64,000 bases of DNA from Chrysomallon squamiferum (taxonomy: Eukaryota > Animalia > Mollusca). The notes under the pieces are model-generated. The model was not told the origin of the DNA and did not search any database. It worked only from the letters and a program-made list of their open reading frames with translations. Each line of letters opens with the position of its first letter. Positions within the stretch are counted from its first letter, which is position 1. Of this stretch, positions 1,371 through 42,128 are shown piece by piece. The position numbers and the translations under genes are program-made. The stretch spans positions 124,001-188,000 of the forward strand of contig CM022672.1 of NCBI GenBank assembly GCA_012295275.1. Reading direction: 5' to 3'.

Positions 1371-1941
1371 GCCTTAAGCTCTAAAAACTGCCTTTTCATA
1401 ACTTGAATTACTGGCAAGATCACTAGCAGTCACCTAGATCAAGTTATGTTATGAATTCTCATAATTACAATGATGGGTGGTTGTCACTTCCAGAAAAAAG
1501 CCAGCTATAGCAATTGATATATCAGAATGAAGAGATACGTTGTAAACAATAAATCCTAAAATATACATTATCGTAATTTATAGATCTGAATGAAATTCAT
1601 TTTTCTTTTCTCTGATATACATACTCTATTATGCATTAAAAAAAAGTAATAATAATAATTTAGTTGACTTGCTATCAAATTTTTCATTACTAACATTATT
1701 TTGTTTTGTTTCATTTTTTTCTTGCAAAAGAAAATGTTATTTAGAACTAAACAGGTGATCACATTTATTGAATTTATAAATAAAATATTTTGTTAGGCCC
1801 TTGACAGTATTTGTGTGTGTGTGTGTGTGTGATTGGTTTTTTTTAATTATTATTTCTTTTTTATTATTTTATACAAGATATTTTATTTAAATTTTAATTT
1901 AAAAAAAATATTTCTCTTCCAGATTTTTGTTGAAATATACA

Positions 1942-2545
1942 ATGGATAAACAATATTCAGTGAAATTCTTTACATCGTTTGTTGAAGCAATGCAGAAATT
2001 TTGTCGAGAATATATAGAATTTGATCAGTGTGTTGAGCTGAGTGGTTATCTGGCAGTTGAGATAGATAATCATAAAAAAGAAAGATATGTATTAAGTGAA
2101 ATGTTGCAGAGTTCAGGAAATGTTATTAGTGAAAGCTACTGTACAAAAGCTTTCAAGACACTGCGCAAAGAACCCTCAGTTTCAAGAGGTAGTGAAAATA
2201 TTGGACCCCGAACTACGCAAGCGCATCCTGAAGAGGTAACCATTGTTTTGCGTGACAGCCCTGAAATGGTATCTCATGTGAACACACAGAGGCATCAGAG
2301 GTTTTCTAATCAACGATCCAGTACTTTCAGTCATTCACAGAGAGGTTATTCTTCTGGTCATACAAGAGAAATAATTAAGCTAGGAAATCCTTTTGATCAA
2401 CAAGTTAGACATACTCCAAATCAGATACAGCCTCGCTCGTTAGATTCATCATCAAGAAATAATTCATCATTTTCACCTTCATCAGCTCAAAAACGTCCAG
2501 GCAGTGAGTTAAATCACCAACAAGAATCACCTGCAGCTAAAAAAG
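1942..2545 (+). CDS. Common coding exon 1 of the multi-isoform transcription-factor gene: ~75-aa N-terminal globular domain (not BTB) followed by an S/Q/R-rich disordered region
   Basis: Acceptor ttctcttccag ends at 1922 (exon starts 1923, so an upstream UTR exon is implied); ATG 1942, MDKQYSVKFFTSFVEAMQKFCREYIEFDQCVELSGYLAVEIDN...; donor AAG|gtaagt after 2545, phase 1. Confidence 0.85.
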
Positions 2546-4102
2546 GTAAGTACAGAATACAATTTAGAGCTTAATCAATAAAATTTCTGTTACTGAAAAT
2601 TATTTATTAACATAGTTTTCAAGTATTTATTCATGGTTATTTTCATAATTATGATTACACTTTCTGATGGTAAATCTGACAAGATACAAGAACTAAAAGT
2701 AAGTGCCTGTTCACAGGCATTGTCTGATACAAATGATATATTTTTTTTAAATAGAAATTTGAATGCATATACAGAAAACAAAAATTAGCTTACTTATTTT
2801 TGGAAGGATATGATGTTTGGAATACTGACATAATGTAACAGCATCACCAAATGTGATTATGAGCCATTTTCAGCCACTGATAACACACTTTAATTTGATT
2901 AACAAATGCATGACCATATATTGAGATCTGTTTTACTATTACAAGAAGTACCTCAGAATTTCTCAAAGATTAATATGCAGTATTTAAAAAAATATAAAAT
3001 GACATAAAAAAGAACACTTGTGATTAAGATATGGTCACTGCTAAAAATCTGTTTAATATGGTGTGTAACTGCAGATTTTTTGACCTCATAAACAGTGCAG
3101 CCTTTGTTCTTGAATTTTGAAATAGCAGTTAGAAATCCAAATTTATTTACATAACAAGATCTTGAGCCATAAAGTCAAACATTGGTACACATATATTGAA
3201 TAGATAATAATCAATCATATCAAAAGCTAGGTAATTGCCCACATTGTCAGATTACCCTGGATGTGCATGCATATTTTTTTGCATTTTGTAATTTTTTCTC
3301 AACTTTGGACCTAACTACGTATTAATATTTTACTGGATTCAAATAATCGTTCCCATAAAGAAACATCCATAGTACGTACTTAAAACAATCAATTCTTTGT
3401 ATCGATGACAAATAATCATAAACTAAACTTTAGATGTTCACAGATATGTAAATTTTTAGATTATCTGAGTACGAAATATGTAACATGAAAATTTACGCTC
3501 AATATCTTTATAATAAATAAAACTGTTAGCTTTCAGTAATAGCCAAAAAGTTCTTGATGCTGAATTCAATCAAGAAATGAGATAAAATTTGTCAGTGTGT
3601 AATCTGCACTCAGTGCTAATTTGAACACAAAAATTGTCATTTGATCAGTGGTAGCAGTAATTCTGCAGCTGCATGATGCATGCACTGCCTGTTGCATATT
3701 TTAGATGTGGAGTATGAATTCACTGAACAATTCATGATCAAACAAATTACATACAATTCATGAACAAATCTTCATATTTATTTTTATTCAGTTCATAATG
3801 TTACAGGTTGATTGTAAACCAAGTTACATGTTAGACAACTGATTTTGTACATTATTGGTTGAAACCTATCTCTCTTCTGCCATCTAATCATAGTAATTAA
3901 TCTTAGTCTGAAATTAAGCAGCAAGATCAGTATCCTTAAAATATCTTTATTGGCCAAATTTTAAAGTTTTCTTCACAAAATAGTAATTAAATTTATTTCA
4001 TTCTTGGTCAAAAATGATCCTTGTAAACTTAATAGTAATTTGATGATGAAAGTGAATGAAATAAAATTGTTTTACCTTATTTTTTCTTTATTTTTTCTGC
4101 AG

Positions 4103-4467
4103 ATAAATGCGATTCAGTAACTTCCATACTGGCTGATCCAAGAAATGTTTATTCAGGTGATACAAGTGAATCACAACAGATAGCAGCATCTACAATACCA
4201 TTTTCATCACAATCCACTTCACAGAACACAGGTGAAAGTATTCGTTTGCCACTTTCAGCTACAGTGAAGGAAGAAGGCATAAGTTCAGTGATAACATTAG
4301 AAACCTCTGATAACACAGAGGAACATACAACAGAAAGTGACATTGGTGATAACTTGCAAGAAACTATGTCACTTGGTTTGGATGCTTCAGCAAATTATTC
4401 TAATAGTTCACAAAGTGGAATTGATGAAAATTCAGCATCATCTTCAGCCTATATATCACAGTTCAAG
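4103..4467 (+). CDS. Common coding exon 2 (acidic/Ser-Thr-rich linker, VKEE SUMO-consensus motif), ending in the shared phase-0 donor
   Basis: Acceptor ttttttctgcag ends at 4102; phase-1 join keeps the frame open (DKCDSVTSILADPRN...ATVKEEG...AYISQFK); donor AAG|gtaaat after 4467. Confidence 0.85.
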
Positions 4468-5489
4468 GTAAATAGGTCTTCATTTTTAACGAATATCTTC
4501 TGTAGTCAGGATCATCTCATGAATTTCACATTTAATGTAAATTACAAAATAAAAAATACAGAATATTGGTTTATCAAATTGTTAAAGAAGTACTTAAAGT
4601 AAAAATTGTTGCATCATGCTGAAGTTATCATAAAATATCTTAAGACAATGTGTGGCAGTAATTTTAAAGTTTAGAATAGCTAAAGAAAACAAGTTTAATG
4701 GATAGTAAATGATAATACTATGAACCCTAAATGCAAAAAATGTAATCTGTTCAAGTCTATCGCTTGCCATTGCAGAGGAAATCAACATAAACTGCCAGAT
4801 TACATTAGGTTTTTATGAACTGATTTTTCAGCTACAAAATGCATCACAGAGGAACAGTGTTTTGCAGAAATGTACATTGTACATATGTTGACAATACAAC
4901 AGAGAGATTTCTTTTTTTTTTTTTTTTTGCTCATTTTTTTTTTTTTTTTTTTGTAATTTATAAAAAAAACCAAAAATATGTAGCTCTTTTTTTTGTTTCT
5001 GTTAAGCAATCTTTATAAAGTAAACACTATGAAACAGTCACAAATATCTCTTTTGTGATGTCAGCAAGAACACTAATTTAAAAATGTACCAAGTTTCATT
5101 AGAACTGAATAGATTTCAGAGTCATATGCAGATTGAAAAATGGAAAATTAGAAAAATGCAAGAATAAGAAGAGAAACATGTTTTGTCCGTTATTTTATTT
5201 CTTTGTCTTGCTTGAAAACTTCACTCAGGAATAAGTCATGTGTTTCCTGTTTAAAATATGTTCAAGATTTTTTGTCCAAAACAAACATTTCCAGTACTAA
5301 AGTTACCAGTGTAAAGGGATTGACATGCAGTTTGATTCATTGTCAACTCTTGCTACCATGTCACTTTGCTTACCTGCACTTATTTTGTATAAGATAGATA
5401 TTTTCTTCATGATCACTTGAATTTCAGACCCAGTTTCTGTGTAAGAGTTCTTTACAAGCTGTGAATCAATTACCAAACTAAACAGTCAC

Positions 5490-5930
5490 CATATTTTAGA
5501 GATGCATTGGTCACATGATCCAATCTGCTGAGCTGGATAAATGCTGTCTGCTTCACATTCCATACCTGAATAATCAGTTGAATAGTAGGCTTAGAAAATG
5601 AGTTATTATCCAAATATGACCTTGTCCTTATGACAAAACTCTCTGAAATAGTATACGGGAAATACTGTAGATCAGTCCCATATGTAATACTAGATAGTTA
5701 GTGTAAAGAAATAGTTGCCTCAAAGGTTTTAATATGTCACTTTTTCAGGACTTTTTGGAGCAAACAAAAGCAAATATGAATGAGTTGTATCAGTAAATGC
5801 TATTTTAGTGCTCAGAAATGAAAATTTTAATTAAATTAAGGTATGGAATCCAAAAGTTAAAACATTCAGAGATGTAAATCTGCAAAAAACTTAAATTTGT
5901 GAAGTTTTCTGCTTCTGCACATTGCCTTAA
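5490..5930. repeat. Dispersed repeat copy B (related to 900-1370)
   Basis: Same collinear blocks as copy A; boundaries approximate. Confidence 0.7.
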
Positions 5931-7153
5931 TAAAAGGTTATTTTTGACTATCTGGAAAGAATAACCCATAGTTGGTGCCAACTTTCTTTTTTCTGTAAAT
6001 CATAAAATATTCATGAATTTGTTGATACCAAAATGTTAACCAGATCATTCACAAAAGTACAGAAATGTATGAATTATAAACAATGTGTGTTTGAGATGAT
6101 CCTGATTTTATATGAAATGTTTGAGTTGCCATGTCTTTGTTGAGATTAATTTTTCCAGTCAGAAACTGAAGAGCAGATTTATATAAATTACTGATTATTA
6201 TACATGAATATTCTAGGAATAAATCACCTTTCCTAAAAATTATTTTGTATTTTGAACAATTGATCCATGAGCCTATATATACTTTAATAACATTATATAT
6301 TTTTTTAATTTGTTCATCAGTTCTTTTCTTGATTGTTAAAAAAACATATTGAAACAATTTTAAGAAATTTTAATTGTTTCACATCAGCTTACATGGCAGC
6401 TTTTATCATTTCTTAGAAATACATTTCTTAGTAAATGTCTGATAAATAGTGGTATGTCAAAAAGAGTTATCTTGGATTGTTAAGTAAAAGTCCATAATTT
6501 GTGTAAAAACTGTTACAAAAAATTTCTTCCTACATTTTATTACTTTATTTAAAGATAAATGTTCAAATAAATGCCACCCCTTCCCCCTCAAAAAAATAGA
6601 AAGAAAACAAATTGAATTTAATCACTTCAATCAGGACTTGAATTTTTGCGTAGGTGTTGTAATTTGTTCAGTATTAAAATTTGCTACACTTTTGAACTGA
6701 ATCCAGTTTGATATAGCAAACATAAACAATTTTTCTGTGCATTAATGTTTGTGTAAATTATGTAAATTATGGAAATCAAAATTAGATGGCCAGATTAAAG
6801 ATGTGTATTCTGTATGATACCAATTGTGTGCCTTTGCATCATTGATTTAAACTGAATTCTGTCATGGTTATAACATATAGTTCAAAATTAAATACAAATT
6901 TTATATAAGAAGTTTAAGAACATAATTTCTTAATTCTTAATACTTTTTATCACCTGCTATTATTTCATTAAGGACTTAAAATGTCACTTGTTGATATATG
7001 ATGGATTGTTTTCTAGAAATTTAAGGAAACTGTGATATATTAAGTTTACTATATTGTATGTAATACAATGATATTTGAAGTAACTTGATCATTACAAATA
7101 TCCTATAATTGTTAAAATTCAAACAATAAGCAGAACTGCTATTGTATTTAATA

Positions 7154-7477
7154 CAGTGGTGCCCAAAATGTCAATTGCAATCAACCAGTTGATTACATAG
7201 ACAGTATGGGTAGATCACATGACACTAAACAATAGACTATCATTTATGCTGCAAGTGCAAGTCATCAGAGTAAGGTGATGGCCAAAAATGTACAGACTTG
7301 TATTGTGCCATACAGGTTCATGCTGTTATGCAAGGTACACCAACATATATTGAAAATAGGTATACTTAGTATAAATAAATAAAATATATAAATGTTTTGC
7401 ATTTTTGTTGTAGGTAGATCATTTTGACATGATCAGTTAAAAAGTAGCTTGCAAACAAAAAAGTGTGGGCATCCCTG
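7154..7477. mobile_element. Non-autonomous hAT-like element (MITE)
   Basis: Imperfect TIRs cagtggtgcccaaa / tgtgggcatccctg, flanked by near-identical 8-bp direct repeats atttaata / atctaata (hAT-type TSD length). Confidence 0.7.
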
Positions 7478-9200
7478 ATCTAATATATGTGTGTATTTCA
7501 CCAGTTTGTCAAACCTGTCCCAGTTCATGCTGCACAAGGGTCATTTTCTTACCTACTATAAAATCATTAACATGGCAATGAAAATAGAGATATGCTGTCT
7601 ACTCATGAATTTCCTTCCACCATATATGTTACAGCATTTATTAAATTTACAAAGCAATGTTTAATATTGAATTTACTGTCTGCAGTTCAGAATAAAATTA
7701 ATTTTTGTGTAATGAAATAGATTTATTGTCTGTATTTCTAGAGAAGCTAAATAGTGGATTTAAAATTAAATAAATAAATAAATATAAAATGGAAAAGAAA
7801 AAAGAAAAAATATAATGTGAAAACAAGCAGTAGATTGAACAGTAATTTTTTGAACTTGTACACTAACACTATATCAAGTTCAACATTTTTATTTTTTATT
7901 ATTATTATTATTTTCCTTTGAGTGTTCTAGTTACTGGTCTGTTAGTGCATAATGAAGAACTACAGCAGTGTTCAACCTAGAATTAAAAATAGGGAGATGG
8001 GACTTCTCCATCTGAACACATTAGGAAGAAGTTAGGTTCTGTGAGGAAAAAATTGACAGTAAGCCAGATGTGTTGAAAACTAAAAATATTTAAACACAAA
8101 ACACAGATTGTTATATACTTCAGTGAACACAGTACTTAGGTGGTCAGTGATTATACATTTTTTGCGAGAAGATTTGTGTTTGTTTTTATTAATTTTCAGT
8201 GAGGCTTGCAGAGGAAACAAAGAAGGCCTATTAATGATCTTTACATTGTCTTTTTGGTGACTGAAACTGGAAAAGCTGACAGCATTATTTGTAATGTTTG
8301 TGGTTATTTATTCATTGAGACCCTTGATGTTTTCCCAAATAAACTTCACCTTGGGTTACAAATACAGTTAAGTTTAAAACAAAAGTTTGAGTATTTCGCC
8401 CATTGTTGCTGCCAAGCATGAACCCAGTAGTACACTTATCTGATTATCATTTATATAAATATTACCATGAATTAAAATGTAAGTTAAAATGTGTGTACTA
8501 TTAAGAGTTTTGTTAAATTCACAAAAATAATGTCATGAGTAAAATGTAATGATCAAAACTTTTTTTCTAGTATTTCGAGCCAGTTAAGTTGGTGAGTAAA
8601 TACATGCTGATAAATTTGGGGTATTCGAAAACTTGGAAAACTCTATAGAGCAAACTGTCCATTGGGTAAAGTGCAGTTTTTAAAAGGAAGTTTAATCTAA
8701 AACAGTTTTGACTTTTCAGATTCTTCAATCCTGCTCCCATTATATCGGGTCTGTGCAGAATAAAATTATTTATTATACTTGAACTTTTCCTCCCAGTAGC
8801 TGTTCTTTTATTTGTCACTGGTAAACTCATTTTACAATATATATAATATAGTATTAATATGGGGGGAGGTGACTATTTATCAGTTAACTCCAGCCATAAC
8901 TGTAACAAAATGTGTAATTGGTGATGCAATTGATGATTTGACTGGGTGTGAAATGTGTTTGAGCAAATGTACAGATTTTTATTTTTGCCTGAGAATCGTG
9001 GCTAACAGTATTTCTCAGAATCACTAACTTTTAAGTAGTCACATTGATATATATTTAAATGTTGTTAGTATTGATAAATCTAAACCATTATCTGAACATG
9101 TAAATTGATACAGAATGTTATTAAATATTACCAATACTTCATTTTTTCTTTCTTTCTATTATTTCTATTATTATTATTATTATTTGATTTTTTCTATTTT

Positions 9201-9235
<35 letters not shown>

Positions 9236-10949: not shown

Positions 10950-11138
10950 TGGCACAGACGCCCTTACCGTTCTGCATACAGCCTTAAGGATATTGATATG
11001 GCTGTCAGCCTTGTTGTCAACAAGCAGGCAAACTTGAGTACTGCCAGCAAGATCAGCGGTGTTCCAATAGCCACACTCCATAGACATGTGAGGCGGAGAA
11101 TCAAAATAAATGAAAAAAAACAAAAAACATTGACATAA
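10950..11138 (+). CDS. Alternative terminal exon P1: pipsqueak-type (HTH_psq/CENP-B N-like) helix-turn-helix; absent from the ORF track
   Basis: ctgtttcag| then phase 0: WHRRPYRSAYSLKDIDMAVSLVVNKQANLSTASKISGVPIATLHRHVRRRIKINEKKQKTLT*; matches the psq pattern YS..D...A...V....S...A....GVP..TL. Confidence 0.8.
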   Translation, partial: WHRRPYRSAYSLKDIDMAVSLVVNKQANLSTASKISGVPIATLHRHVRRRIKINEKKQKTLT

Positions 11139-13990: not shown

Positions 13991-14185
13991 AGCACACCTG
14001 TTGGATATCGCCGATCATTCAGAAACTATAGTCAAGAACAAATCAACTTTGGTATTCAGCTTGTTTCTCTTGAACACTGTAGTCTGTGTAAAGCCAGCAA
14101 GGTCTGTGGTGTTCCAAAAGCCACTCTGTTTAGGATTCTCCGACGAAGGAAAAATATAGAAGCACAGAGACTAGACACATTTTAA
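13991..14185 (+). CDS. Alternative terminal exon P2: pipsqueak-type helix-turn-helix
   Basis: cctttcag| phase 0: STPVGYRRSFRNYSQEQINFGIQLVSLEHCSLCKASKVCGVPKATLFRILRRRK...*. Confidence 0.8.
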   Translation, partial: STPVGYRRSFRNYSQEQINFGIQLVSLEHCSLCKASKVCGVPKATLFRILRRRKNIEAQRLDTF

Positions 14186-15427
14186 TATAAATTTGAAGTT
14201 TACACACATTCAAAACCATTTATCAAAGAGGGAACTGTATTGAAATTATGATCTTTATTAAAAGTAGATAATTAGTTAAGGAGATGAAATAGGTTTGAAT
14301 TTTATTATTTGCAGATAATAGAGTTAGCTGATTAAAAATACTCATTAATTTTTAACATTTAGTCATGCAAAACAGCTGAATTACTGTGGTTGGTAGTATT
14401 GAGAGGTTACGTTATTCAGTACTGAGGATGTGCTGGTGTTATTTAATTTTTTTAAATATATTTATTATTTTTTAAAAACAGTTTTAATGTATTGATTTCA
14501 TTTACAAATACAGCTGACATACTGTGTCTTTTTGCTTGTCTGTCTGTTTTGTTGTTACTGATATCCATGCATAAAACAAAAGTCAGAGTGAACATATTGC
14601 TTGAGTACTTTTCAAATGAACATTTTAGAATGGTAACATTTGCAGATGGTTTTTTTTTTTTTTTTATCTTTCATTTAGAAAAGTTTTCATTTTATTTTTG
14701 GTAAATTTCAGTTACCTACAAAAGAAACAAAATTGTTACAAGTTATGTTGGGTTAATTAGAATTGAAATAAATTTAAAACAGTCTAGAAGAATGGTTAAT
14801 GATAATTTTTAGGAGGTTGATTTAAAAAAATGTTGGCATTGAAAAATGTGAACAATTTAATTATCTTATCCATAACTTTGTTTAATGGTAAAAATGTTTT
14901 TACTTGCATTCCCACATTTTTACATGGTGGAGGCTGATTTTAGGCATTTTGAATCATAGCAAAGCAGAGGAATAAACTGAACATGAAGAGCATGGTAAAT
15001 TACAGCTAAAATTCATTAATTTGCAAACAAGTACTGGAGTTCTTCTCAACCGTATCTCTTTCTATATAAAACAAATTGATTGTAAGTGATTTTAATTGTT
15101 TAGAATAGAAATTAAGTTAAGAAACTGTCTACATATTATTCAGTTATTTAGTAAAATGGTCAGTTCAAGCAAATTGGTTGTGTTTCAGTCAGTCAGTTAG
15201 AAATTGGGTTAATGTAAACTTTCTTGAAGTCAAAGATATACAAGTAGTTTTACTGTGTTAAGAAAATGTAAGGGTAAGCAAGTTTTTGATATTTCTCGGG
15301 TTGCATTCAGATTTCACACAGTGTGTGATTATCTAACTAAATTACATCCCATAATACTTGTTATGAAATAGAAAGAGAAAATGATAGTGCTCTTTAAGAG
15401 ATGACTTGATACAAATTGTATTTTCAG

Positions 15428-15634
15428 GTTATCAAATCCAGTTCAGCCACAATAAAATATAGGTGTGAAGTGTGTGGAAAGGAGTCTGTCGGCAAGTCTA
15501 ATTATCGACATCATATGGAGAAACACAACTTGTCAAGATTTCCTTGTTTGCACTGTGGCAAAAGTTACTCATTTCAATCTGCTTTGAGTCGACATCTAAA
15601 AACATGTCCTGTTAAACAACTTGCATTTAAATAA
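15428..15634 (+). CDS. Alternative terminal exon Z1: C2H2 + C2HC zinc-finger pair
   Basis: tattttcag| phase 0; CEVC..HMEKH / CLHC..HLKTC; stop TAA. Confidence 0.88.
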   Translation, partial: VIKSSSATIKYRCEVCGKESVGKSNYRHHMEKHNLSRFPCLHCGKSYSFQSALSRHLKTCPVKQLAFK

Positions 15635-15890: not shown

Positions 15891-16094
15891 GTGAATTTCT
15901 CTTCCAGTGCTTCTCTGTCTGCAGATGGCTTAACCTGCAAGATATGTGGAGTGGAAGTTCATAGCCAGGTATACCTACGTCAGCACATGGAGAAACATAG
16001 TGCCACCCGTTTCCCATGTAGATTCTGTGGACGCAGTTACTCATTCAAATCATCTCTCAGGAGACACAAACATTCATGTTCTCAAAGATTTTAG
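15891..16094 (+). CDS. Alternative terminal exon Z2: C2H2 + C2HC pair
   Basis: tactttcag| phase 0; CKIC..HMEKH / CRFC..HKHSC. Confidence 0.88.
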   Translation: MNFSSSASLSADGLTCKICGVEVHSQVYLRQHMEKHSATRFPCRFCGRSYSFKSSLRRHKHSCSQRF

Positions 16095-16497: not shown

Positions 16498-16704
16498 ATG
16501 AGGTGTTTACCAGCATCAGGGGATGCACACTGTATGTGTTCTGTATGTAACAAGACTTTCACATCTGTGTTTTATCTTCAACAGCACACGCAGAAGCATG
16601 ACCAGTGTCATCATCCCTGCCTTTTATATAGAAAGAGCTTAACTCTCAAATCAAGTCTCTACAAACATGTTAAAAATAGATGCCATATCAAAAAACAGTT
16701 ATAA
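16498..16704 (+). CDS. Alternative terminal exon Z3: C2H2 plus a degenerate second finger (CLLY; second Cys replaced by Tyr)
   Basis: catttccag| phase 0; CSVC..HTQKH / CLLYRKSLTLKSSLYKHVKNRC; frame open but possibly decaying. Confidence 0.7.
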   Translation: MRCLPASGDAHCMCSVCNKTFTSVFYLQQHTQKHDQCHHPCLLYRKSLTLKSSLYKHVKNRCHIKKQL

Positions 16705-16877: not shown

Positions 16878-16908
<31 letters not shown>

Positions 16909-17256: not shown

Positions 17257-17472
17257 ATGACATCTATTCGTCATTCAAGTCTCAGCAGTACCAGTGAAAT
17301 TTGCCTCATTTGTAGCAAGACATTTGGATCAAGCACATATTTAAAAGAACATATGCAAAAACATAATGAACGAATGACCTGCAATTTCTGTGGAAAGAGC
17401 TATTCTTTTAAATCTGCTCTCAATCGGCACAAACGATCTTGTCATATCAAAAATTTCCCACTTTTGCAGTAG
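17257..17472 (+). CDS. Alternative terminal exon Z4: C2H2 + C2HC pair
   Basis: tattttcag| phase 0; CLIC..HMQKH / CNFC..HKRSC. Confidence 0.88.
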   Translation: MTSIRHSSLSSTSEICLICSKTFGSSTYLKEHMQKHNERMTCNFCGKSYSFKSALNRHKRSCHIKNFPLLQ

Positions 17473-18607: not shown

Positions 18608-18880
18608 ATGGGTACAATTTTGAGTGTGTTGCCACCGGCAGGCACAACACAACAAGATGCCTCCACTCCAGCTGAGCTTGGTTTCAAGGCAACATTTTCT
18701 TGCTCTGTTTGTGGCAGACATTTTCCTGCAAGTGGTAATTTGCGACAACATATGGAAAAACACAACCAGGCTCGATATTCCTGTGAATTTTGTGGGAAAA
18801 GCTATACATTTAAATCTAATCTTTTCCGCCATAACAGATTTTGTCAGATAAAAGCTTATCACGAGAAGACTAACCTGTAG
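18608..18880 (+). CDS. Alternative terminal exon Z5: C2H2 + C2HC pair
   Basis: gtcatttcag| phase 0; CSVC..HMEKH / CEFC..HNRFC. Confidence 0.88.
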   Translation: MGTILSVLPPAGTTQQDASTPAELGFKATFSCSVCGRHFPASGNLRQHMEKHNQARYSCEFCGKSYTFKSNLFRHNRFCQIKAYHEKTNL

Positions 18881-19027: not shown

Positions 19028-19234
19028 GCTAATCTCACTCCAGCTATGGCTAACTATTCCTGTCTTACTTGTGGAAAATGCTTCAGTGAGAAGCTGTATT
19101 TACAACAGCATATGGACATGCACCGGGAAACTAAGTTCCCCTGCCCCTATTGTGGCAGAACTTATACCTTTAGATCAAATGTTTGTAGACATGCCAAAAC
19201 CTGTCCTCAAAGGCCAAACATAGGAGGAAATTAA
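19028..19234 (+). CDS. Alternative terminal exon Z6: C2H2 + C2HC pair
   Basis: tactttcag| phase 0; CLTC..HMDMH / CPYC..HAKTC. Confidence 0.88.
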   Translation, partial: ANLTPAMANYSCLTCGKCFSEKLYLQQHMDMHRETKFPCPYCGRTYTFRSNVCRHAKTCPQRPNIGGN

Positions 19235-19389: not shown

Positions 19390-19573
19390 ATGGCAATACT
19401 GTCAAGACAAACATTTTACTGCTGTTTGTGAAAAAACCTTCAGTGAATATTGCTATCTCAGACAACATGAAGAAACACACAAGACTGAGTGATTCGCATA
19501 TCAATTTTGTGGTCTTTTTTCATTGAAGTCAAATCTGTGTCGCCACATAAAACATTGCAAACACATTAAGTAA
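19390..19573 (+). pseudogene. Pseudo-exon of the zinc-finger array
   Basis: tactttcag|ATG..., frameshift in the first CxxC, then CEKTFSEYCYLRQHEETHKTE*FAYQFCG..LKSNLCRHIKHC with an internal TGA and a Cys->Tyr change. Confidence 0.85.
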
Positions 19574-20214: not shown

Positions 20215-20256
<42 letters not shown>

Positions 20257-20382: not shown

Positions 20383-20607
20383 GTTGGCACAGAACTATTA
20401 TCCACATTTGCATCACAAAGGCTTACCTGTCCTATATGTGGGAAAACATTCAGTCAACGTGATTATTTAAAACAGCACATGCAGATACATAATAAATCCC
20501 GATTCCCATGTCAGTACTGTGGAAAAAGTTACTCATTCAAAACCAATTTGTGTAACCACCTTAAAATCTGTCGTGTCAAATTCCAGCAGTGGGATTCTAC
20601 AGAATGA
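20383..20607 (+). CDS. Alternative terminal exon Z7: C2H2 + C2HC pair
   Basis: ttattttcag| phase 0; CPIC..HMQIH / CQYC..HLKIC. Confidence 0.88.
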   Translation, partial: VGTELLSTFASQRLTCPICGKTFSQRDYLKQHMQIHNKSRFPCQYCGKSYSFKTNLCNHLKICRVKFQQWDSTE

Positions 20608-21883: not shown

Positions 21884-22129
21884 ATGGGTAGGATGACATC
21901 TGACACTGGTGGCAGCCCAAGCAAATTGTCATGCCCTGTTTGTGGAAAGTTATTTGCAAAACGTCCTTACCTCAAACAACACATGGAAATACATAGCCGA
22001 TCCCGATTTACCTGCAATAAGTGTGGTCTACATTATTCTATGAAGTCTGCTCTCTGTAGGCATCAGAGGACATGTATAGTGAGGATGTCAGGTGGTGTGC
22101 CTAGCAGTGACAAATCAGAATTTAACTAA
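21884..22129 (+). CDS. Alternative terminal exon Z8: C2H2 + C2HC pair
   Basis: cctatttcag| phase 0; CPVC..HMEIH / CNKC..HQRTC. Confidence 0.88.
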   Translation: MGRMTSDTGGSPSKLSCPVCGKLFAKRPYLKQHMEIHSRSRFTCNKCGLHYSMKSALCRHQRTCIVRMSGGVPSSDKSEFN

Positions 22130-22166: not shown

Positions 22167-22409
22167 GTGACATTACCAAACACAAACATTGAAGCGATGA
22201 CGTCTGTTGTGACGTTGTCGTCAGCTAGGCCTGTCATTTGTGCTACATGTGGACGCCAGTTTAGCAAGAGTCGGTACCTCAGACAACATATGGAGATTCA
22301 TAACAAGTCAAGATACCCATGTCACTACTGTGGCAAAAGTTACACCTTCAAATCTAATTTGTGTAACCACATGAAGATCTGTGAGGTCAGACTTAACTTA
22401 CCAAAATAA
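22167..22409 (+). CDS. Alternative terminal exon Z9: C2H2 + C2HC pair
   Basis: tactttcag| phase 0; CATC..HMEIH / CHYC..HMKIC. Confidence 0.88.
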   Translation: MTLPNTNIEAMTSVVTLSSARPVICATCGRQFSKSRYLRQHMEIHNKSRYPCHYCGKSYTFKSNLCNHMKICEVRLNLPK

Positions 22410-22589: not shown

Positions 22590-22805
22590 AGGATGCCGAA
22601 CAATTCTATTGAACAGCCAGTTGCAGCACAGTGTCCAATTTGTGGCAGGCAATTTGCTGTCGCGCGGTATCTTCGACAACACTTGGAAGTGCACAGTCAG
22701 ACAAGATATGCTTGTTCAAATTGTGGTAGAAGCTATTCAATGAAATCTGCTCTAAGTCATCATTTAAAAGTTTGTCCTGGAATCCGTGCTGTCACTGGCA
22801 ATTGA
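22590..22805 (+). CDS. Alternative terminal exon Z10: C2H2 + C2HC pair
   Basis: ttctttcag|AGG ATG phase 0; CPIC..HLEVH / CSNC..HLKVC. Confidence 0.88.
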   Translation, partial: RMPNNSIEQPVAAQCPICGRQFAVARYLRQHLEVHSQTRYACSNCGRSYSMKSALSHHLKVCPGIRAVTGN

Positions 22806-24033: not shown

Positions 24034-24234
24034 GTGGACATCACAGGAGAATATCTCAACTGTAAACTTTGTGGAAAACACTTCACTGAAAGTCGTTATC
24101 TCAGACAGCACATGGAGCTGCACAGTGATTCGCGATTTTCTTGCAGTTGCTGTGGCAAAACGTACACATTTAAATCTGGTTTGTCAAGGCATTCCAGACA
24201 TTGTAAAGGTATCAGAAGTGGAAAAAACTTCTGA
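24034..24234 (+). CDS. Alternative terminal exon Z11: C2H2 + C2HC pair
   Basis: gtttttcag| phase 0; CKLC..HMELH / CSCC..HSRHC. Confidence 0.88.
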   Translation: MDITGEYLNCKLCGKHFTESRYLRQHMELHSDSRFSCSCCGKTYTFKSGLSRHSRHCKGIRSGKNF

Positions 24235-24387: not shown

Positions 24388-24576
24388 ATGGGAACATCAT
24401 GGCATGCACTTGAGCCCTACCCATGCAGTATCTGTGGCAAAACGTTCAGCACTTACATGTACTTAAAACAACATATGCAGAAACACAACCAGTCAAGATT
24501 CCAGTGTACTTCGTGTGGAAAAAGTTACACCTTCAAGGCTGCCCTTTGTCGACACCAGAGGAATAAATGCCACTGA
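24388..24576 (+). CDS. Alternative terminal exon Z12: C2H2 + C2HC pair
   Basis: tattttcag| phase 0; CSIC..HMQKH / CTSC..HQRNKC. Confidence 0.88.
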   Translation: MGTSWHALEPYPCSICGKTFSTYMYLKQHMQKHNQSRFQCTSCGKSYTFKAALCRHQRNKCH

Positions 24577-27140: not shown

Positions 27141-27169
27141 TGATTAGTAGGTGCTGTTTGTATTTTCAG

Positions 27170-27382
27170 ACGGGTGGCAGCAGACCAAGGGACCTGTCAT
27201 GTTCAGTGTGTGGAAAAGAATTCCCAAGTTCACTGAAATACAATTACCAGAATTTGAAACAACACATGCAGAAACACAGCAATTCCAGATTTGTTTGTCC
27301 TATGTGTGGCAAGAGCTACCTCTTCAAACCATCTTTATTTCGACACCAGAAACTTTGTACTTACAGAAAAATGAAATTTTAG
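27170..27382 (+). CDS. Alternative terminal exon Z13: C2H2 with a 17-residue loop + C2HC
   Basis: tattttcag| phase 0; CSVC GKEFPSSLKYNYQNLKQ HMQKH / CPMC..HQKLC. Confidence 0.87.
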   Translation, partial: TGGSRPRDLSCSVCGKEFPSSLKYNYQNLKQHMQKHSNSRFVCPMCGKSYLFKPSLFRHQKLCTYRKMKF

Positions 27383-27537: not shown

Positions 27538-27756
27538 AAAGTTGCCTCCAGGAAAAAGGACTTGATTTGCACGATATGTGGCAAAGTTTTCCCCAGGTCA
27601 TTGACATACAATTACCAGAATTTGAAACAGCATATGCAGAAACACAGTGAAGGGGGATTTCCCTGTAAAATGTGTGGTAAAGTGTTTTCTTTCAAAACTG
27701 CGGCAAAGAGGCATGAGGAATTTGCCTGCCATTGGCACTCCATTCTACCCAGTTAG
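27538..27756 (+). CDS. Alternative terminal exon Z14: C2H2 with a 17-residue loop + C2HC
   Basis: tcttttcag| phase 0; CTIC GKVFPRSLTYNYQNLKQ HMQKH / CKMC..HEEFAC. Confidence 0.87.
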   Translation, partial: KVASRKKDLICTICGKVFPRSLTYNYQNLKQHMQKHSEGGFPCKMCGKVFSFKTAAKRHEEFACHWHSILPS

Positions 27757-28970: not shown

Positions 28971-29189
28971 ACCTACGAGAAGGGGTTGTTGAATCCAACT
29001 TCACAGTCTGTTGAATGTAATGTTTGTGGCAAGACATTCCCTGCATCAATAAACCTAAAACAGCATATGCAGAAGCACGACCAGCGTTATCCTTGCTTGC
29101 TGTGTGGTCTCAGTTTCTCTTTCAAATCTGCCCTCAAGAGACACCAGCAGAAGACTTGTCCAGCACGAAGCTCATTCCCACAGATGTAA
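28971..29189 (+). CDS. Alternative terminal exon Z15: C2H2 + C2HC pair
   Basis: attttttcag| phase 0; CNVC..HMQKH / CLLC..HQQKTC. Confidence 0.88.
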   Translation, partial: TYEKGLLNPTSQSVECNVCGKTFPASINLKQHMQKHDQRYPCLLCGLSFSFKSALKRHQQKTCPARSSFPQM

Positions 29190-30868: not shown

Positions 30869-31072
30869 GTTAAAAGTGACAAGGGATTGGATTTGATGTG
30901 TCCTGTTTGTGACAGAGTGTTCCCTCCATCTAAACGAACATACATTTATCAGCACATGGAAAAACACAATGAGAGAGGCTACGTCTGTGAAACATGCAAT
31001 AAACGTTTTTCATTCAAGTCTTCACTAAAACGACACATTCAGAAATTCTGTATATCAAAAATGTTTAATTGA
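30869..31072 (+). CDS. Alternative terminal exon Z16: C2H2 with a 14-residue loop + C2HC
   Basis: ttgtttcag| phase 0; CPVC DRVFPPSKRTYIYQ HMEKH / CETC..HIQKFC. Confidence 0.87.
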   Translation, partial: VKSDKGLDLMCPVCDRVFPPSKRTYIYQHMEKHNERGYVCETCNKRFSFKSSLKRHIQKFCISKMFN

Positions 31073-34304: not shown

Positions 34305-34505
34305 GTGGATAGGCAGGTGGAAGTGCTGACCTGCAGTGTTTGTAGGAAGGAGTTTCCAGCTATATTCAATCTGAAACAACACATGCAGAAACACTGTGAA
34401 GCCAAGTTTCCATGTATCTTGTGTGGAAAACTGTTTTCTTTCAAAGCTGCTGCAAAAAGACACATGCTAAAATACTGTAGTTTCCGATCTCAGTTGTTCA
34501 GTTAG
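34305..34505 (+). CDS. Alternative terminal exon Z17: C2H2 + C2HC pair
   Basis: ttactttcag| phase 0; CSVC..HMQKH / CILC..HMLKYC. Confidence 0.88.
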   Translation: MDRQVEVLTCSVCRKEFPAIFNLKQHMQKHCEAKFPCILCGKLFSFKAAAKRHMLKYCSFRSQLFS

Positions 34506-35460: not shown

Positions 35461-35655
35461 GAGACTTCTACTCATGGCAGCTTTGTGTGTTCTCTGTGTG
35501 CCAAACTATTCCCTGCCATTTATAACTTAAAACAACATATGCAGAAGCACAGCCAGTTGGGATTCTCCTGTGTTTTATGTCATGCAAACTTCAGATTTAA
35601 ATCTAGTCTCCATCGTCACCAAAAAGCAACCTGTCCATTCCGTATAAAACACTAG
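35461..35655 (+). CDS. Alternative terminal exon Z18: C2H2 + C2HC pair; absent from the ORF track
   Basis: tgtatttcag| phase 0: ETSTHGSFVCSLCAKLFPAIYNLKQHMQKHSQLGFSCVLCHANFRFKSSLHRHQKATCPFRIKH*. Confidence 0.88.
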   Translation, partial: ETSTHGSFVCSLCAKLFPAIYNLKQHMQKHSQLGFSCVLCHANFRFKSSLHRHQKATCPFRIKH

Positions 35656-36428
35656 TGTATTATCAGTTCCTTTTCACATTATATTTAATGTCCATTTTAT
35701 AAATGACATTAGTACACCAATGTCATGTACAACGTCAGTTCATTAGTACATTGTTGATACAGCATTCAAAGTCAGTACATTGGAAGAATGTACAACACAT
35801 GAAGTACAAAGTTAATGCACAGGTACAACATCAGTAAAACATAAAAGGTCAACATTAGTAGAATATTAATATTAAGTACAAAGGCAGTATATTGGTACAA
35901 CATGATACATCAACATTGTTAATAGGTTGATGAATAGTCAGTATACAGTGTCAGTATCTGACACATCAGCAAGGTGTTAACAGGTTGTCACAAATGAAAC
36001 TTATAAAACAAGATATCTTTTATCTAAAATATGTTGCTGGGGCATTACTTAAAGTGGTACTTAGGTAGGTGGGGTAGTGGTATAAAACATTTTTAGTTCT
36101 GTATTCTCAGAGCAGTTTGAACTGAAAACAATTTTTTGGTTTGATAGTAGAGTCTCATAAATTAATCCATTGTTGTATATAAATAGCTGTAGTTCAGATT
36201 TTGATTATGATGATAATAAAGGTTTCTACACATTGAGTTGACATTGTTTCTGTTTTAAATTAACATTGTGTTTAATGGTCATATTTATAAATGGCAGAAG
36301 TTTCAGTGATGGATCATATAAATGTGTGTTTAAATGAATTCTTCTGTTTTATTTTCAGAGTACATTACAGTTTTATTTACAGGGTTTAATGTAAATTTAT
36401 TGGAAACATCAAATTGTTTTACTTTCAG

Positions 36429-36602
36429 GGTTCAGCCAACCCAACATGTCCAGTTTGTGGTAAGAAGTTCCATGCTTTAATCAATGTGAGACAGCACATG
36501 GAGAAACACAGTGCATCTCGCTTTCCTTGTCGTAAATGTGGAGCCAGCTTTTCTTTCAAATCAAGTCTGTATCGACATATCAAGCGTTGTGTTTATTCTT
36601 AA
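36429..36602 (+). CDS. Alternative terminal exon Z19: C2H2 + C2HC pair
   Basis: ttactttcag| phase 0; CPVC..HMEKH / CRKC..HIKRC. Confidence 0.88.
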   Translation, partial: GSANPTCPVCGKKFHALINVRQHMEKHSASRFPCRKCGASFSFKSSLYRHIKRCVYS

Positions 36603-37904: not shown

Positions 37905-38172
37905 TATTTTATCTCATACATCACTGTCTGACTACATCATCTCATACACATCACTACCAGACTACTTCATCTCATACACTTCACTATCAGACTATTTTAT
38001 CTCATACATCACTATCAAACTACTTCATTTCATACACATCACTACAGACTACTTCATTTCATACTCATCGCTATCAGACTGCTTCCTCTAATAATAGCTA
38101 TCAGACTGCTTCATTTCATACATCACTATCAGACTACTTCATGTCATACATCACTATCAGACTACTTTATTT
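37905..38172 (+). repeat. Minisatellite, left arm (~28-30 bp unit catacacatcactatcagactacttcatct)
   Basis: About 9 degenerate tandem copies; reverse complement of the 38750-39680 array. Confidence 0.85.
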
Positions 38173-38292
38173 CATTAATTAACCACACTCTAATAGCTCT
38201 CAGTGTGACAGCTGCTTTCTCCTTCATAATTAATATTTAAATGAAACATACAAGTAATTATTTATTTACTTTAATTTTGTTTACTTTGACAG

Positions 38293-38339
38293 ACGCAAAT
38301 TAAAGAAGAATATAAAGATGAGCTGACTCTGACACAACA
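38293..38339 (+). CDS. 47-nt internal adaptor exon (phase 0 in, phase 2 out): TQIKEEYKDELTLTQ
   Basis: Acceptor ttttgtttactttgacag ends at 38292; donor CA|gtaagt at 38340; frame open; supplies the phase needed by Z20 and Z21. Confidence 0.75.
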
Positions 38340-38749: not shown

Positions 38750-39680
38750 TGTCTGATTGTGATGTATGAAAATACTATTGTGTGATAGTGATCTATGAGA
38801 TAAAGTAGTCTGACAGTATTGTGTATAAGATAGTCTCATAGTGATGTGTGTGAGATAAAGTAGTCTGACAGTATTGTGTATGAGATAGTCTCATAGTGAT
38901 GTGTGAGACAAAGTAGTCTGACAGTGATGTGTATGAGACAAATTAGTTTCACAGTGATGTGTATGAGACAAAGTAGTCTGACAGTGATGTGTATGAGACA
39001 AAGTAGTCTGACAGTAATGTGTATAAGATAAAGTAGTCTGGCAGTATTGTGTATGAGATAGTCTCATTGTGATGTGTATGAGACAAGGTAGTCTGACAGT
39101 GATGTGTATGAGACAAATTAGTTTCACAGTGATGTGTATGAGACAAAGTAGTCTGACAGTAACATGTATGAGATAGTCTCATAGTGATGTGTATGAGACA
39201 AAGTAGTTTGACAGTAATGTGTATGAGATAGTCTCATAGTAATGTGTATGAGACAAGGTAGTCTGATAGTAATGTGTATGAGAAGGTAGTCTGATAGTAA
39301 TGTGTATGAGATAAAGTAGTCTGACAGTGATGTGTATGAGACAAATTAGTCTCACAGTCATGTCATATGAGATAGTCTCATTGTGATGTGTATGAGACAA
39401 AGTAGTCTGACAGTAATGTGTATGAGATAAAGTAGTCTGACAGTGATGTGTATGAGACAAAGTAGTCTGACAGTAATGTGTATGAGACGAAGTAGTCTGT
39501 AGTGATATTTATGAAATAAATATATTGATAGTGATATGAATGAGATAAAGTACTTTGACAGTGATGTGTATGAGATTGTCTCATACATATCACTATGAGA
39601 CAAAATAGACTGACAGTGATGTATACGAGATCACGTAGCATGACAGTAATGTATATGAGATGAAGTAGTCTGTGAAATGA
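38750..39680 (-). repeat. Minisatellite, right arm (~30 bp unit gtgatgtgtatgagacaaagtagtctgaca)
   Basis: Roughly 30 tandem copies with variants; inverted relative to 37905-38172. Confidence 0.9.
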
Positions 39681-40009
39681 TCTGGACAGTGTACAAAGAA
39701 GTTAAAAAAGAAAACAATGATGGACATTTCTCATTAACTCTTAGTTTAAATTGTTTGTCTGAAATCTGTATCAGATGGAGTATTTTAAAATCATGTGAAA
39801 TAGTTTGAGACAGCATGTGTGGTGTGTATGACAGAAAGAAGTCTCACTCTGTATCAGATGAAGTGTTGTTGTCTAGGTGTACCTGGAAACTTATATATGT
39901 GTATGTATGTGGTAATATTTTCTTGATCTATTTCATAATATAGCCTTGATGTACTGATGAAGGTGACAGACAGCTTTATAAATAATATAATCATTGATGT
40001 ATATATACC

Positions 40010-40755
40010 AGGAGTGTACATAATATGCTCAATGTCATACAGGATAAAGTATTGGGTGGCAGGCAGGAGGGTACATAATATGTTCAGTGTTGTATGGGAT
40101 AAAGTAGTAGGTGGCAGGCAGGAAGGTATATAATGTTCTGTGTTATACATGATGAAGTTGTAGATAGAAGACAGGAAGGTACATAATATGCTCACTTTTG
40201 TACAGGGTACAGTATTAGGTGGTAAGCAGGAGAGCAAATAATATCCTCAGTGTTTTACATGATAAAATTGTAGATAGAAGACAGGAGGGTACATAATGTG
40301 ATCAGTGTTGTACAGGATACAGTATTAGATGGCAGGCAGGAAGTTGTATAATATGTAGAATGCTGTACAGGATAAAGTAGTAAGTGGCAAACAACATTAT
40401 AAATAATATAATCATTGATGTATAGCAGGATGGTACGTAATATATTCAGTGTTGTACAGGATATAGTAGCAGGTGGAAGTTAGGAGGTACATACCATACT
40501 CAGTGTTGTATAAGATAAAGTAGTAGGTGGCAGGCAGGAGGTACCTAACACACTCAATGTACAGGATAACATAGTAGGTGGCAGTTAGGAATGTACAAAC
40601 TATACTCAGTGTTGTACAAGATAAAGTAGTAGGTGGCAATTAGGAGGTACAGTGTTGTACAGGATAAAGTGTTAGGTGGCAGTTAGGATGTACACAACAC
40701 TCAGTGTTGTACAGGATAATGTATTAGGTGACAGGCAGGAGGGTATATAACATAC
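40010..40755. repeat. Degenerate ~55-bp tandem repeat abutting the Z20 acceptor
   Basis: Recurrent gtacataatatgctcagtgttgtacaggataaagtagtaggtggcaggcaggagg-like unit. Confidence 0.8.
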
Positions 40756-40770
40756 TGTTCTTTGTTTCAG

Positions 40771-41011
40771 AATGGATGAGCGCCTGCCTTATGTTTCACT
40801 TGACGATGATGTAAAGGAACAGTTTTCTTGTCGTACTTGTGCTAAAACATTCCGTCAGCGGCGAAACTTGATTCGTCATCACAGGAGTGTTCACCAGGGC
40901 TTGCTTTTCACTGCCTGTCCTCAGTGTGGTCGTGTGTTTAGCAGAGAGGATGCTATGAAAGTTCATTTGAAATCAAACTGCAGTTTCAGAAATCATTCTA
41001 CTGCTAGTTAA
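40771..41011 (+). CDS. Alternative terminal exon Z20 (phase 2): divergent C2H2 + C2HC pair
   Basis: tttgtttcag|A ATG GAT...; CRTC..HHRSVH / CPQC..HLKSNC; a phase-0 reading stops after 2 codons (AAT GGA TGA). Confidence 0.82.
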
Positions 41012-41827
41012 CTATCATATACACAACATCACACAGACATGTAGATGATAAAAACATGAAGCAGTGCCAAAGAACATTTGTTACTTCAGAACAATCTAAC
41101 TAAATAAATAACATGAAGTTCATACAGTCTGTTTATTATTTCTAAGATAAATGATACAAGTTTTAGTCTGAATTCAGATTATAAAATACAACTCATCTGT
41201 TTACTTTTATTAGTATAATTTATATCATATATTTCATAATCCTACCGATCCAAATCATGCAATTTTTGTTACTATTTTACTTTTGTTGTTTTTGTTTGTT
41301 TGTTGTTGTTTTGTTTTTTGTAATATATCCCACCTACTTCATTTTTTGCATTATGTATGTTTCCTACTTCATGTTTATAGTAATCTGTCAACTGTTTTCA
41401 TATTTCTATGTAATCTGTTTCTTTCCGTTTCATGTGTCTGTAACATGTCTGCAAACCACAAACCTGTTTGTAATGAGTGTCTCTATCATGGACACTTTAT
41501 ATTAATAGATGTAAAACAAATAGATAAATTGCACACTTTCAGTAATAAATACAAAGTATATGTATGTAATTGCTTGTGTGGATAATGTCCAATTTTTTTC
41601 ATATTACATTCATCTGTGTGTGTATATGTATCTACAGACATCATCTTTCTACATTTTTTGACTTCATAAATTTACACTGCATGTGTTGTTAGTTTATATT
41701 GTGTGTCTGTATATTACAATGTTCTATAAGTTTTATCTTTGTATGTCTGTACAATGGGTTTCATGAACCTGTGTGCCATGCTGCTTCTGTCATTCATACA
41801 CCGATATATGTTTTGTTTTCATTTTAG

Positions 41828-42128
41828 AAATGTTGTTTTGCTGGAAAATACTGAGAAATGCTATGACTCCATAGAACAACCAAGTGAACGTCTCTGGTCA
41901 TTACAGACTGCAGAGATGACAACACGACAGCATTGCAACCATTCTAAAAGAAAGGACTACAAATTTTCCTGTGATGTTTGTGGGCGAGCATTCGGCCGAC
42001 GTGAACACCTAGAAGATCATCGAAGGATGCACTATGAGCCAGCCTTGCCATGCAGTCGATGTGGTCAGATCTTCCGGTATTCCAGGAACCTGAGAGCTCA
42101 CAAAAAGAAATGTAAACAAGCATTATGA
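41828..42128 (+). CDS. Alternative terminal exon Z21 (phase 2): divergent C2H2 + C2HC pair
   Basis: ttttcattttag|A AAT GTT...; CDVC..HRRMH / CSRC..HKKKC. Confidence 0.8.

What the first reader, a model, noticed from the sequence alone, without database searches (positions are those of the whole stretch)
1923..42128. One gene with 23 swappable DNA-binding tails: a lola/mod(mdg4)-like alternative terminal exon array without a BTB domain
Seen: the many short zinc-finger 'ORFs' are not standalone genes. Each begins right after a polypyrimidine-AG acceptor, which explains the recurrent 'FQ' in the ORF track. Each encodes one DNA-binding module and ends in its own stop, all on the + strand. All 21 open modules between 10950 and 36602 are phase 0, matching the single donor after 4467 (AAG|gtaaat). 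Two more follow via an adaptor exon. Known: Drosophila lola, mod(mdg4), broad, fruitless and tramtrack join constant BTB-encoding exons to alternative 3' DNA-binding exons. Inference: this is an independently evolved equivalent in a non-insect invertebrate, making about 23 transcription-factor isoforms from one constant ~320-aa N-terminus. Gene predictors would probably split or miss it.
Basis: partly seen in the sequence, partly recalled or inferred. Interest (0 to 1): 0.95.

Follow-up and report, generated by a model that had tools for sequence, protein, structure and literature searches.

The report
Snail gene, 23 swappable DNA-binding ends
In what is probably a snail, one fixed gene front is followed by 23 different end exons for likely DNA-binding domains, two of which RNA shows spliced straight to the front, so the gene likely makes about 23 transcription factors: the design of the fly gene lola, but built on an unnamed protein domain shared by a mollusc gene family.

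Summary
Confirmed and larger than reported. Two constant exons (323 codons, phase-0 donor after 4467) precede 21 phase-0 terminal exons (2 pipsqueak-type HTH, 19 C2H2/C2HC finger pairs) and two more reached through a 47-nt adaptor exon; a 24th, decayed exon lies at 19390. RNA contigs join 4467 to 13991 and to 22167. The Gigantopelta aegis ortholog has RefSeq isoforms that share 344 residues ending at the same junction, and their tails match 15 of the 23 exons; predicted DNA-contact residues are 83/88 identical between orthologous tails against 30-46% between tails. The constant N-terminal ~75 residues form an unnamed domain (confident model: one helix plus a beta-meander; no BTB match). It heads at least 15 G. 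aegis genes with 124 different C-termini among 126 fetched proteins, and occurs in other gastropods and a bivalve. Tails include C2H2, psq, Tc5-HTH, BEN and DUF3504. No paper describing this was found, but RefSeq already models it in a relative. The scan has noted similar BTB-less arrays in annelid and sea-urchin DNA (unchecked notes). Verdict: works like lola/mod(mdg4), is not a BTB-ZF gene; new variant of a known kind. Cis versus trans splicing and the domain's function remain untested.

The parts
1923..2545 (+). Constant exon A (ATG at 1942); codons 1-~75 encode the unnamed conserved N-terminal domain, the rest is Ser/Gln-rich linker; donor AAG|gtaagt, phase 1. A 5' exon presumably lies upstream of the 1923 acceptor
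   Evidence: (76% identity to G. aegis ortholog, same Met)
4103..4467 (+). Constant exon B, acidic/Ser-rich linker ending ...SQFK; the shared phase-0 donor AAG|gtaaat
   Evidence: RNA contig X1 ends at 4467, joints start here
10950..11138 (+). Terminal exon 1, psq-type HTH
   Evidence: G. aegis X19 begins alike; an X2 RNA contig starts at 10950
13991..14185 (+). Terminal exon 2, psq-type HTH
   Evidence: G. aegis X17 49/64 identical; RNA joint 4467-13991 GT..AG
15428..15634 (+). Terminal exon 3, C2H2+C2HC pair
   Evidence: G. aegis X6
15891..16094 (+). Terminal exon 4, finger pair
   Evidence: G. aegis X11
16498..16704 (+). Terminal exon 5, finger pair; second finger lacks its second Cys
   Evidence: G. 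aegis X10 keeps it
17257..17472 (+). Terminal exon 6, finger pair
   Evidence: G. aegis X15
18608..18880 (+). Terminal exon 7, finger pair; its first ~23 codons match a leader that G. aegis X3/X4 place before two other tails
19028..19234 (+). Terminal exon 8, finger pair
   Evidence: G. aegis X12 and X3
19390..19573 (+). Decayed terminal exon (TTTCAG acceptor kept; frameshift, in-frame stop, lost Cys); counterpart of the intact G. aegis X13 tail
   Evidence: (tblastn E 2.7e-15, 58% identity)
20383..20607 (+). Terminal exon 9, finger pair
   Evidence: G. aegis X7
21884..22129 (+). Terminal exon 10, finger pair
22167..22409 (+). Terminal exon 11, finger pair
   Evidence: G. aegis X5; X3 RNA contig runs from the constant donor into this exon
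22590..22805 (+). Terminal exon 12, finger pair
24034..24234 (+). Terminal exon 13, finger pair
24388..24576 (+). Terminal exon 14, finger pair
   Evidence: G. aegis X14
27170..27382 (+). Terminal exon 15, finger pair (5-residue insert in finger 1)
   Evidence: G. aegis X16
27538..27756 (+). Terminal exon 16, finger pair (same insert)
   Evidence: G. aegis X8
28971..29189 (+). Terminal exon 17, finger pair
30869..31072 (+). Terminal exon 18, finger pair
34305..34505 (+). Terminal exon 19, finger pair
35461..35655 (+). Terminal exon 20, finger pair
36429..36602 (+). Terminal exon 21, finger pair
   Evidence: G. aegis X9
38293..38339 (+). Adaptor exon, 47 nt, phase 0 in and phase 2 out, donor gtaagt
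   Evidence: G. aegis X1 and X2 share an equivalent adaptor
40771..41011 (+). Terminal exon 22 (phase 2, via adaptor), finger pair
   Evidence: G. aegis X2
41828..42128 (+). Terminal exon 23 (phase 2, via adaptor), finger pair
   Evidence: G. aegis X1

Best explanation
One gene splices a fixed 323-codon front to one of 23 stop-terminated end exons (shown in RNA for two, inferred for the rest), likely by ordinary cis-splicing with alternative 3' ends, and so likely makes a set of transcription factors that share an unnamed N-terminal domain, probably a protein-interaction head, and differ in their predicted DNA-reading tips. Shown: exon anatomy, phases, two junctions, matching ortholog isoforms, conserved module identity. 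Inferred: one long pre-mRNA offers a single donor and a row of near-identical TTTCAG acceptors; the acceptor chosen, together with the poly(A) site used, fixes the tail. Exons with a short gap to the next acceptor probably carry the next module in their 3' UTR. The array grew by tandem exon duplication with loss (one decayed copy), and in the wider family by capture of transposase-type DNA-binding exons (psq/Tc5 HTH, a piggyBac-type finger, DUF3504, BEN). The N-terminal domain probably plays the part that BTB plays in lola (oligomerisation or cofactor binding); this rests on analogy and conservation only.
For: Phase and acceptor uniformity. RNA: joint 4465/13989, read as GT..AG at +2, i.e. 4467-13991, depth 23.1 in run X2, absent from the other 3 runs including the genome-like X5; X3 contig leaves the donor into exon 22167; X1 contig stops at 4467; an X2 contig starts at 10950. 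Ortholog LOC121384253: 18 of 19 isoforms fetched share 344 aa ending SQFK, each followed by one module; they match 15 of 23 window exons; 11 of 13 finger-tail ortholog pairs are starred clades. Predicted contact positions are 83/88 identical in 11 ortholog pairs against 30% (finger 1) and 46% (finger 2) between modules; all 21 finger tails have distinct codes. CpG o/e is 0.19-0.23 from 1923 to 43500 and 0.76-0.78 beyond, as expected for one methylated gene body (established for invertebrates, recalled). Family: 15 G. aegis genes, 124 distinct ends among 126 fetched proteins; also Aplysia (4 ends), Haliotis, Babylonia, Physella (2 each).
Against: Only 2 of 23 junctions were seen in this organism's RNA, each in one contig of one run; RNA was laid only on 4300-14440, and no joint to 10950 was listed there. 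8 of 23 exons (21884, 22590, 24034, 28971, 30869, 34305, 35461 and the fingers of 18608) have no counterpart among the 18 fetched ortholog isoforms. RefSeq isoforms are models whose read support I did not see. RNA contigs also cover most intron bins (24-28 of 30), so nascent RNA, DNA carry-over or internal promoters cannot be told apart. Many AATAAA sites lie between modules, which a 40-kb cis transcript must read through. DNA binding and the role of the N-terminal domain were not tested.
Confidence: 0.8

Rival explanations
1. Same products, but made wholly or partly by trans-splicing as in mod(mdg4): groups of end exons are transcribed from internal promoters and joined to a separate donor transcript.
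For: mod(mdg4) makes all 31 mRNAs this way (PMC13490949, Introduction) and lola uses cis- and trans-splicing (10.1101/132027, passage). Modules here come in tight clusters with no AATAAA or ATTAAA before the next acceptor in 7 of 23 cases, separated by longer gaps that hold several. The junction reads fit either route.
Against: All exons are collinear on one strand, so trans-splicing is not needed; CpG depletion is uniform across the array in ~10-kb bins. The short gaps lack hexamers as length alone would predict in AT-rich DNA.
Confidence: 0.13
2. Only a few tails are functional; the rest are rarely spliced or decaying duplicates.
For: One module is decayed and one has lost a zinc ligand; only 2 junctions were seen here; 8 modules lack a fetched ortholog isoform.
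Against: 23 of 24 modules keep frame, acceptor and stop; orthologous tails keep 83/88 contact residues while leaders and linkers drift.
Confidence: 0.05
3. The modules are separate micro-genes, or are spliced in series into one poly-finger protein.
For: Several modules begin with ATG right after the acceptor (e.g. 16498, 17257, 18608, 21884, 24388). In G. aegis a leader from one exon is joined to two other tails (X3, X4), so some chaining exists.
Against: Each module has its own stop; 16 of 23 show no donor-like motif in the coding part; RNA joins the constant donor straight to modules 2 and 11; every ortholog isoform holds one module.
Confidence: 0.02

Closest known systems
Drosophila longitudinals lacking (lola)
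   Same: Constant N-terminal exons joined to alternative 3' exons; 20 protein isoforms, 17 with their own zinc-finger motif (10.1101/132027, passages). Similar scale and tail type.
   Different: lola's constant head is a Tramtrack-type BTB, reported only in arthropods and not found in molluscs (PMC11426971, passages). Here the head is an unnamed ~75-aa domain with no BTB match, the array mixes psq-type HTH with finger pairs, and at least 15 paralogous genes in one snail genome share the design.
Drosophila mod(mdg4)
   Same: One common region and 31 alternative C-terminal exons, some reached through a second exon (PMC13490949, abstract and Introduction).
   Different: mod(mdg4) has a BTB head, exons on both strands, internal promoters and obligatory trans-splicing; here all exons are on one strand and trans-splicing is untested.
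Gigantopelta aegis LOC121384253 and paralogs (RefSeq gene models)
   Same: Direct ortholog: 76% identity over the first 201 aa, same junction, matching tails and adaptor.
   Different: [quoted passage not shown]
Transposon-derived TF families in molluscs (HTH-Psq, CENPB/Tc5)
   Same: psq and Tc5 HTH domains from pogo-type transposases are reported as domesticated and expanded in gastropods (PMC10027918, passages); the same domains occur as tails here.
   Different: In the passages seen they are treated as separate genes; here they are alternative ends behind a shared head.

Membership tests
Tramtrack-group BTB-ZF genes (lola, mod(mdg4)) | N-terminal BTB domain by sequence | tested here: not met
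   No Pfam family at E<=0.05 in either constant exon; 0 of 59 family members match BTB at E<=0.001; profile against PDB sequences gave 1 unrelated hit at E 0.9; the ortholog starts at the same Met.
Tramtrack-group BTB-ZF genes (lola, mod(mdg4)) | BTB fold | tested here: inconclusive
   Model (pLDDT 84.5) has one helix then strands (H7-24, E30-41, E45-56, E61-63, E66-72), unlike the mainly helical BTB (recalled). No BTB among the listed rows, but an unlisted family is not excluded by those searches.
Tramtrack-group BTB-ZF genes (lola, mod(mdg4)) | Arthropod distribution | tested here: not met
   Named true homologs are gastropods and one bivalve; the one insect hit (P0180) is a repetitive protein matching through repeats.
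lola-like architecture (functional class) | Constant exons with one donor spliced to many alternative terminal exons in one phase | tested here: met
lola-like architecture (functional class) | Each terminal exon encodes a distinct DNA-binding-type module | tested here: met
   Pfam matches for 23 of 23, two of them below cutoff; 21 of 21 distinct predicted contact codes. Binding itself not tested.
lola-like architecture (functional class) | Constant head oligomerises | not tested
   No result was obtained.
mod(mdg4)-type trans-spliced locus | Variable exons on the opposite strand | tested here: not met
   No finger motif on the minus strand in the window; no convincing minus-strand tblastn hit of 140 family tails.
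mod(mdg4)-type trans-spliced locus | Internal promoters and joining of separate transcripts | not testable with these tools
   Only assembled contigs were available; they show neither starts nor phase.

The most novel reading that the evidence does not exclude
Molluscs independently evolved a whole lola/mod(mdg4)-style system: a family of at least 15 clustered genes per genome in which an undescribed helix-plus-beta-meander interaction domain is spliced to well over a hundred alternative DNA-binding ends, many captured from transposases. If the heads hetero-oligomerise, this is a hidden combinatorial transcription-factor repertoire, and with the arrays noted in annelids and sea urchins it would make the design a recurrent animal solution rather than an insect oddity.
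Probability: 0.5. Interest if true: 0.88.

Novelty: new variant of a known kind. Interest (0 to 1): 0.74.

Why it matters
The constant-head, swappable-tail transcription-factor gene is textbook only for insect BTB genes. Finding it on a head with no BTB match, repeated at 15 or more loci in a snail, points to convergent evolution of a way to multiply DNA-binding specificities, and defines an unnamed domain that Pfam lacks. It changes how mollusc zinc-finger repertoires are counted, since genes and isoforms here are misnamed in databases. It also gives a testable system for how one donor chooses among 20+ equal acceptors, and for whether trans-splicing co-evolves with this layout.

Tried and rejected
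No whole genome is held for the window, so paralog number and synteny in this species are unknown. RNA could be laid on one stretch only (4300-14440), so junctions to exons 3-23 were visible only as loose ends (one seen; 73 loose-end rows were not shown). The complex predictor was not available, so oligomerisation has no verdict. The first structure model from 26 close homologs was poor (pLDDT 61, all helix) and was replaced by the 59-sequence model. Fold searches gave nothing clear: Foldseek 0 matches at E<=0.001; VIA-align best Z 4.6 (rmsd 2.8, 63 aligned, a pseudopilin), none at Z>=5 of 48,161; this does not show that the fold is new. ESM Atlas best score 0.81 to unnamed bacterial clusters, a level shuffled sequences often reach: rejected. 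P0180 and P0188 (repetitive) were dropped from alignments as false hits. The first contact-residue script failed and was redone; 2 of 13 ortholog pairs were left out of the 83/88 count because the parser did not return two fingers on both sides. Paper searches (listings only) showed no description of this gene family or architecture in molluscs; the library lacks most subscription papers and no supplements were read. Pfam found nothing for 4 small ORFs outside the gene. Look-up of earlier scan notes by sequence and by mollusc words returned nothing.
Full report
Observation. Six-frame translation and a motif scan find finger pairs only on the + strand between 15.4 and 42.1 kb, with two HTH-like ORFs at 10.9 and 14.0 kb. 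The constant CDS 1942-2545 + 4103-4467 is 969 nt, 323 codons, and ends in phase 0 at AAG|gtaaat. Twenty-one modules begin after TTTCAG (20) or TTCCAG (1), are open in phase 0 for 57-90 codons and stop. All 21 have such a hexamer within 130 nt upstream of the domain, against 0.20 of background windows, and the nearest one is in phase 0 for 20 of 21; the modules are related by duplication, so this is not 21 independent trials. A 47-nt exon at 38293-38339 shifts to phase 2, which fits the acceptors at 40771 and 41828. Pfam gives zf-C2H2 families for 21 modules and HTH_psq just under cutoff for two; neither constant exon matches any family at E<=0.05. The second finger of each pair ends in Cys (C2HC).

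RNA. Four RNA runs and one run of unrecorded kind hold the array as contigs. Laid on 4300-14440 (4 of the 5 runs): run X2 has a joint 4465-13989 that reads GT..AG at +2, that is 4467 to 13991, depth 23.1, 27 letters on the short side, not in X1, X3 or the genome-like X5. Run X3 has a loose end behind 4469 whose 30 shown letters equal 22169-22198, so the constant donor is joined to exon 22167, skipping ten intact modules. An X1 contig ends at 4467 and an X2 contig starts at 10950, as expected at branch points. No joint to 10950 was listed. Intron bins are also covered (24-28 of 30 bins), so these runs cannot speak to promoters, levels or strand.

Ortholog. The first 201 residues are 76% identical to Gigantopelta aegis LOC121384253, so the window is probably from a related gastropod; the species was not determined. 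Of 19 clustered RefSeq isoforms, 18 were fetched. They start at the same Met, share 344 residues ending SQFK, and each continues into one module. They match 15 of the 23 window exons; X1 and X2 share an adaptor and end in the counterparts of 41828 and 40771. In a tree of 43 finger tails, 11 of 13 window/G. aegis pairs are starred clades, one has 89/98 and one is unresolved (few columns, bootstrap not settled). Predicted contact positions (-1, 2, 3, 6; numbering recalled) are 83/88 identical in 11 pairs, against 30% and 46% between window modules for fingers 1 and 2, and all 21 finger tails have distinct codes. RefSeq isoforms are models; I did not see their read support.

Turnover. tblastn with 140 family tails found one further module, 19390-19573, with its acceptor kept but a frameshift, an in-frame stop and lost cysteines; its G. 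aegis counterpart (X13) is intact. Module 16498 lacks a zinc ligand that G. aegis keeps. G. aegis X3 and X4 put a leader matching the start of exon 18608 in front of the next two tails, a nested choice for which I saw no donor in the window sequence.

The head domain and the family. Conservation is confined to about 75 N-terminal residues. phmmer over 1.84 billion representatives gave 77 hits, 2 of them repetitive false hits. Named homologs are from Gigantopelta, Haliotis, Littorina, Batillaria, Babylonia, Aplysia, Physella, Biomphalaria, Bulinus, Lymnaea, Candidula and the bivalve Solemya; these searches are word- or single-sequence-limited and do not fix the range. Grouping fetched proteins by their first 150 residues gives 15 G. 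aegis genes with two or more ends, 124 distinct C-termini among 126 proteins, plus Aplysia (4 ends), Haliotis, Babylonia and Physella (2 each). All G. aegis rows list the same 91.7-Mb contig length, which suggests one chromosome (inferred). Tails include C2H2, psq, Tc5-HTH, BEN, DUF3504 and a DDE_Tnp_1-like finger; 0 of 59 members match BTB. AlphaFold2 with 59 sequences gives pLDDT 84.5, pTM 0.68: one helix followed by a long beta-meander. Fold searches found no clear match. An extended hairpin with one helix would suit an oligomer interface, but this is inference; no complex prediction was obtained.

Mechanism. Most likely one long transcript offers one donor and a row of equal acceptors, and acceptor choice with poly(A) choice fixes the tail. 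CpG o/e is 0.19-0.23 from 1923 to 43500 and 0.76-0.78 beyond, which fits one methylated gene body (recalled for invertebrates). Seven modules have neither AATAAA nor ATTAAA before the next acceptor (gaps 37-403 nt), so their 3' UTRs probably run through the next module. Trans-splicing from internal promoters is the main rival and cannot be tested with contigs; nothing here requires it.

Comparison. lola encodes 20 isoforms with a constant BTB, 17 with a unique finger motif, by cis- and trans-splicing (10.1101/132027, passages). mod(mdg4) makes 31 mRNAs by trans-splicing from five promoter-bearing clusters (PMC13490949, abstract and Introduction). Tramtrack-type BTBs were reported only in arthropods and not found in molluscs (PMC11426971, passages). 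psq and CENPB-type TFs in gastropods are described as transposon-derived (PMC10027918, passages). The G. aegis genome paper has one unrelated mention of 'zinc finger' (PMC7895826, passages). Searches (listings only) showed no description of this family; the library is incomplete and supplements were not read. So the locus works like lola but fails the BTB membership test by sequence.

Earlier scan notes report BTB-less arrays in probable annelid and in sea-urchin DNA. They are unchecked AI notes; I could not compare their head domains with this one, and they did not change the reading.

Verdict. Real, conserved and, in the searches made, undescribed: a new variant of a known kind. Interest 0.74: surprising to specialists as convergence on an unnamed domain at family scale, tempered because the design is known from insects, RefSeq already models it in a relative, and function is untested.

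Noticed in passing
window 19390-19573: Decayed 24th module with intact acceptor; intact in G. aegis (X13). Could be a true loss, an allele or an assembly error.
   Followed up: partly
window 18608-18680: Start of exon 7 matches a leader that G. aegis X3/X4 splice onto two downstream tails; no donor seen at the matching place here.
   Followed up: partly
window 1-610: Fragmented ORF that reads like a Tc1/mariner transposase remnant (recalled resemblance); Pfam gave no match for 78-248.
   Followed up: partly
window ~43500: Sharp step in CpG o/e from ~0.2 to ~0.77, probably the end of the methylated gene body.
   Followed up: partly
window 26849-27138, 37911-38175, 38794-39672, 40009-40756: Minisatellite arrays (28-55 nt units) in the introns just upstream of exon 15, of the adaptor and of exon 22.
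   Followed up: no
window 55926-63900: Exons of a separate + strand gene with an F5/8 type C (discoidin) match and Cys-rich exons further on.
   Followed up: partly
window 19159-19167 and 36359-36383: Further strong acceptor-like sites at 36359 and 36383 just upstream of exon 21 lead to stops within 3-11 codons in phase 0: possible short or decoy ends. (19390 is treated above.)
   Followed up: no
P0210-P0214 (Bulinus, Lymnaea, Biomphalaria, Aplysia, Candidula): 1,600-1,800-aa proteins carry the head domain at about residue 100-190, with precomputed PF28388; one is labelled vertnin by its source.
   Followed up: partly
Haliotis and Solemya homologs (P0068-P0112, P0176): The head is very often paired with DUF3504 (16 of 59 members), the domain of QRICH1/ZMYM-type proteins, which may be the oldest partner.
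   Followed up: no
G. aegis LOC121383032 (P0071-P0077): Tails share the first part of a BEN domain and differ only in its last helices: alternative splicing inside a DNA-binding domain.
   Followed up: no
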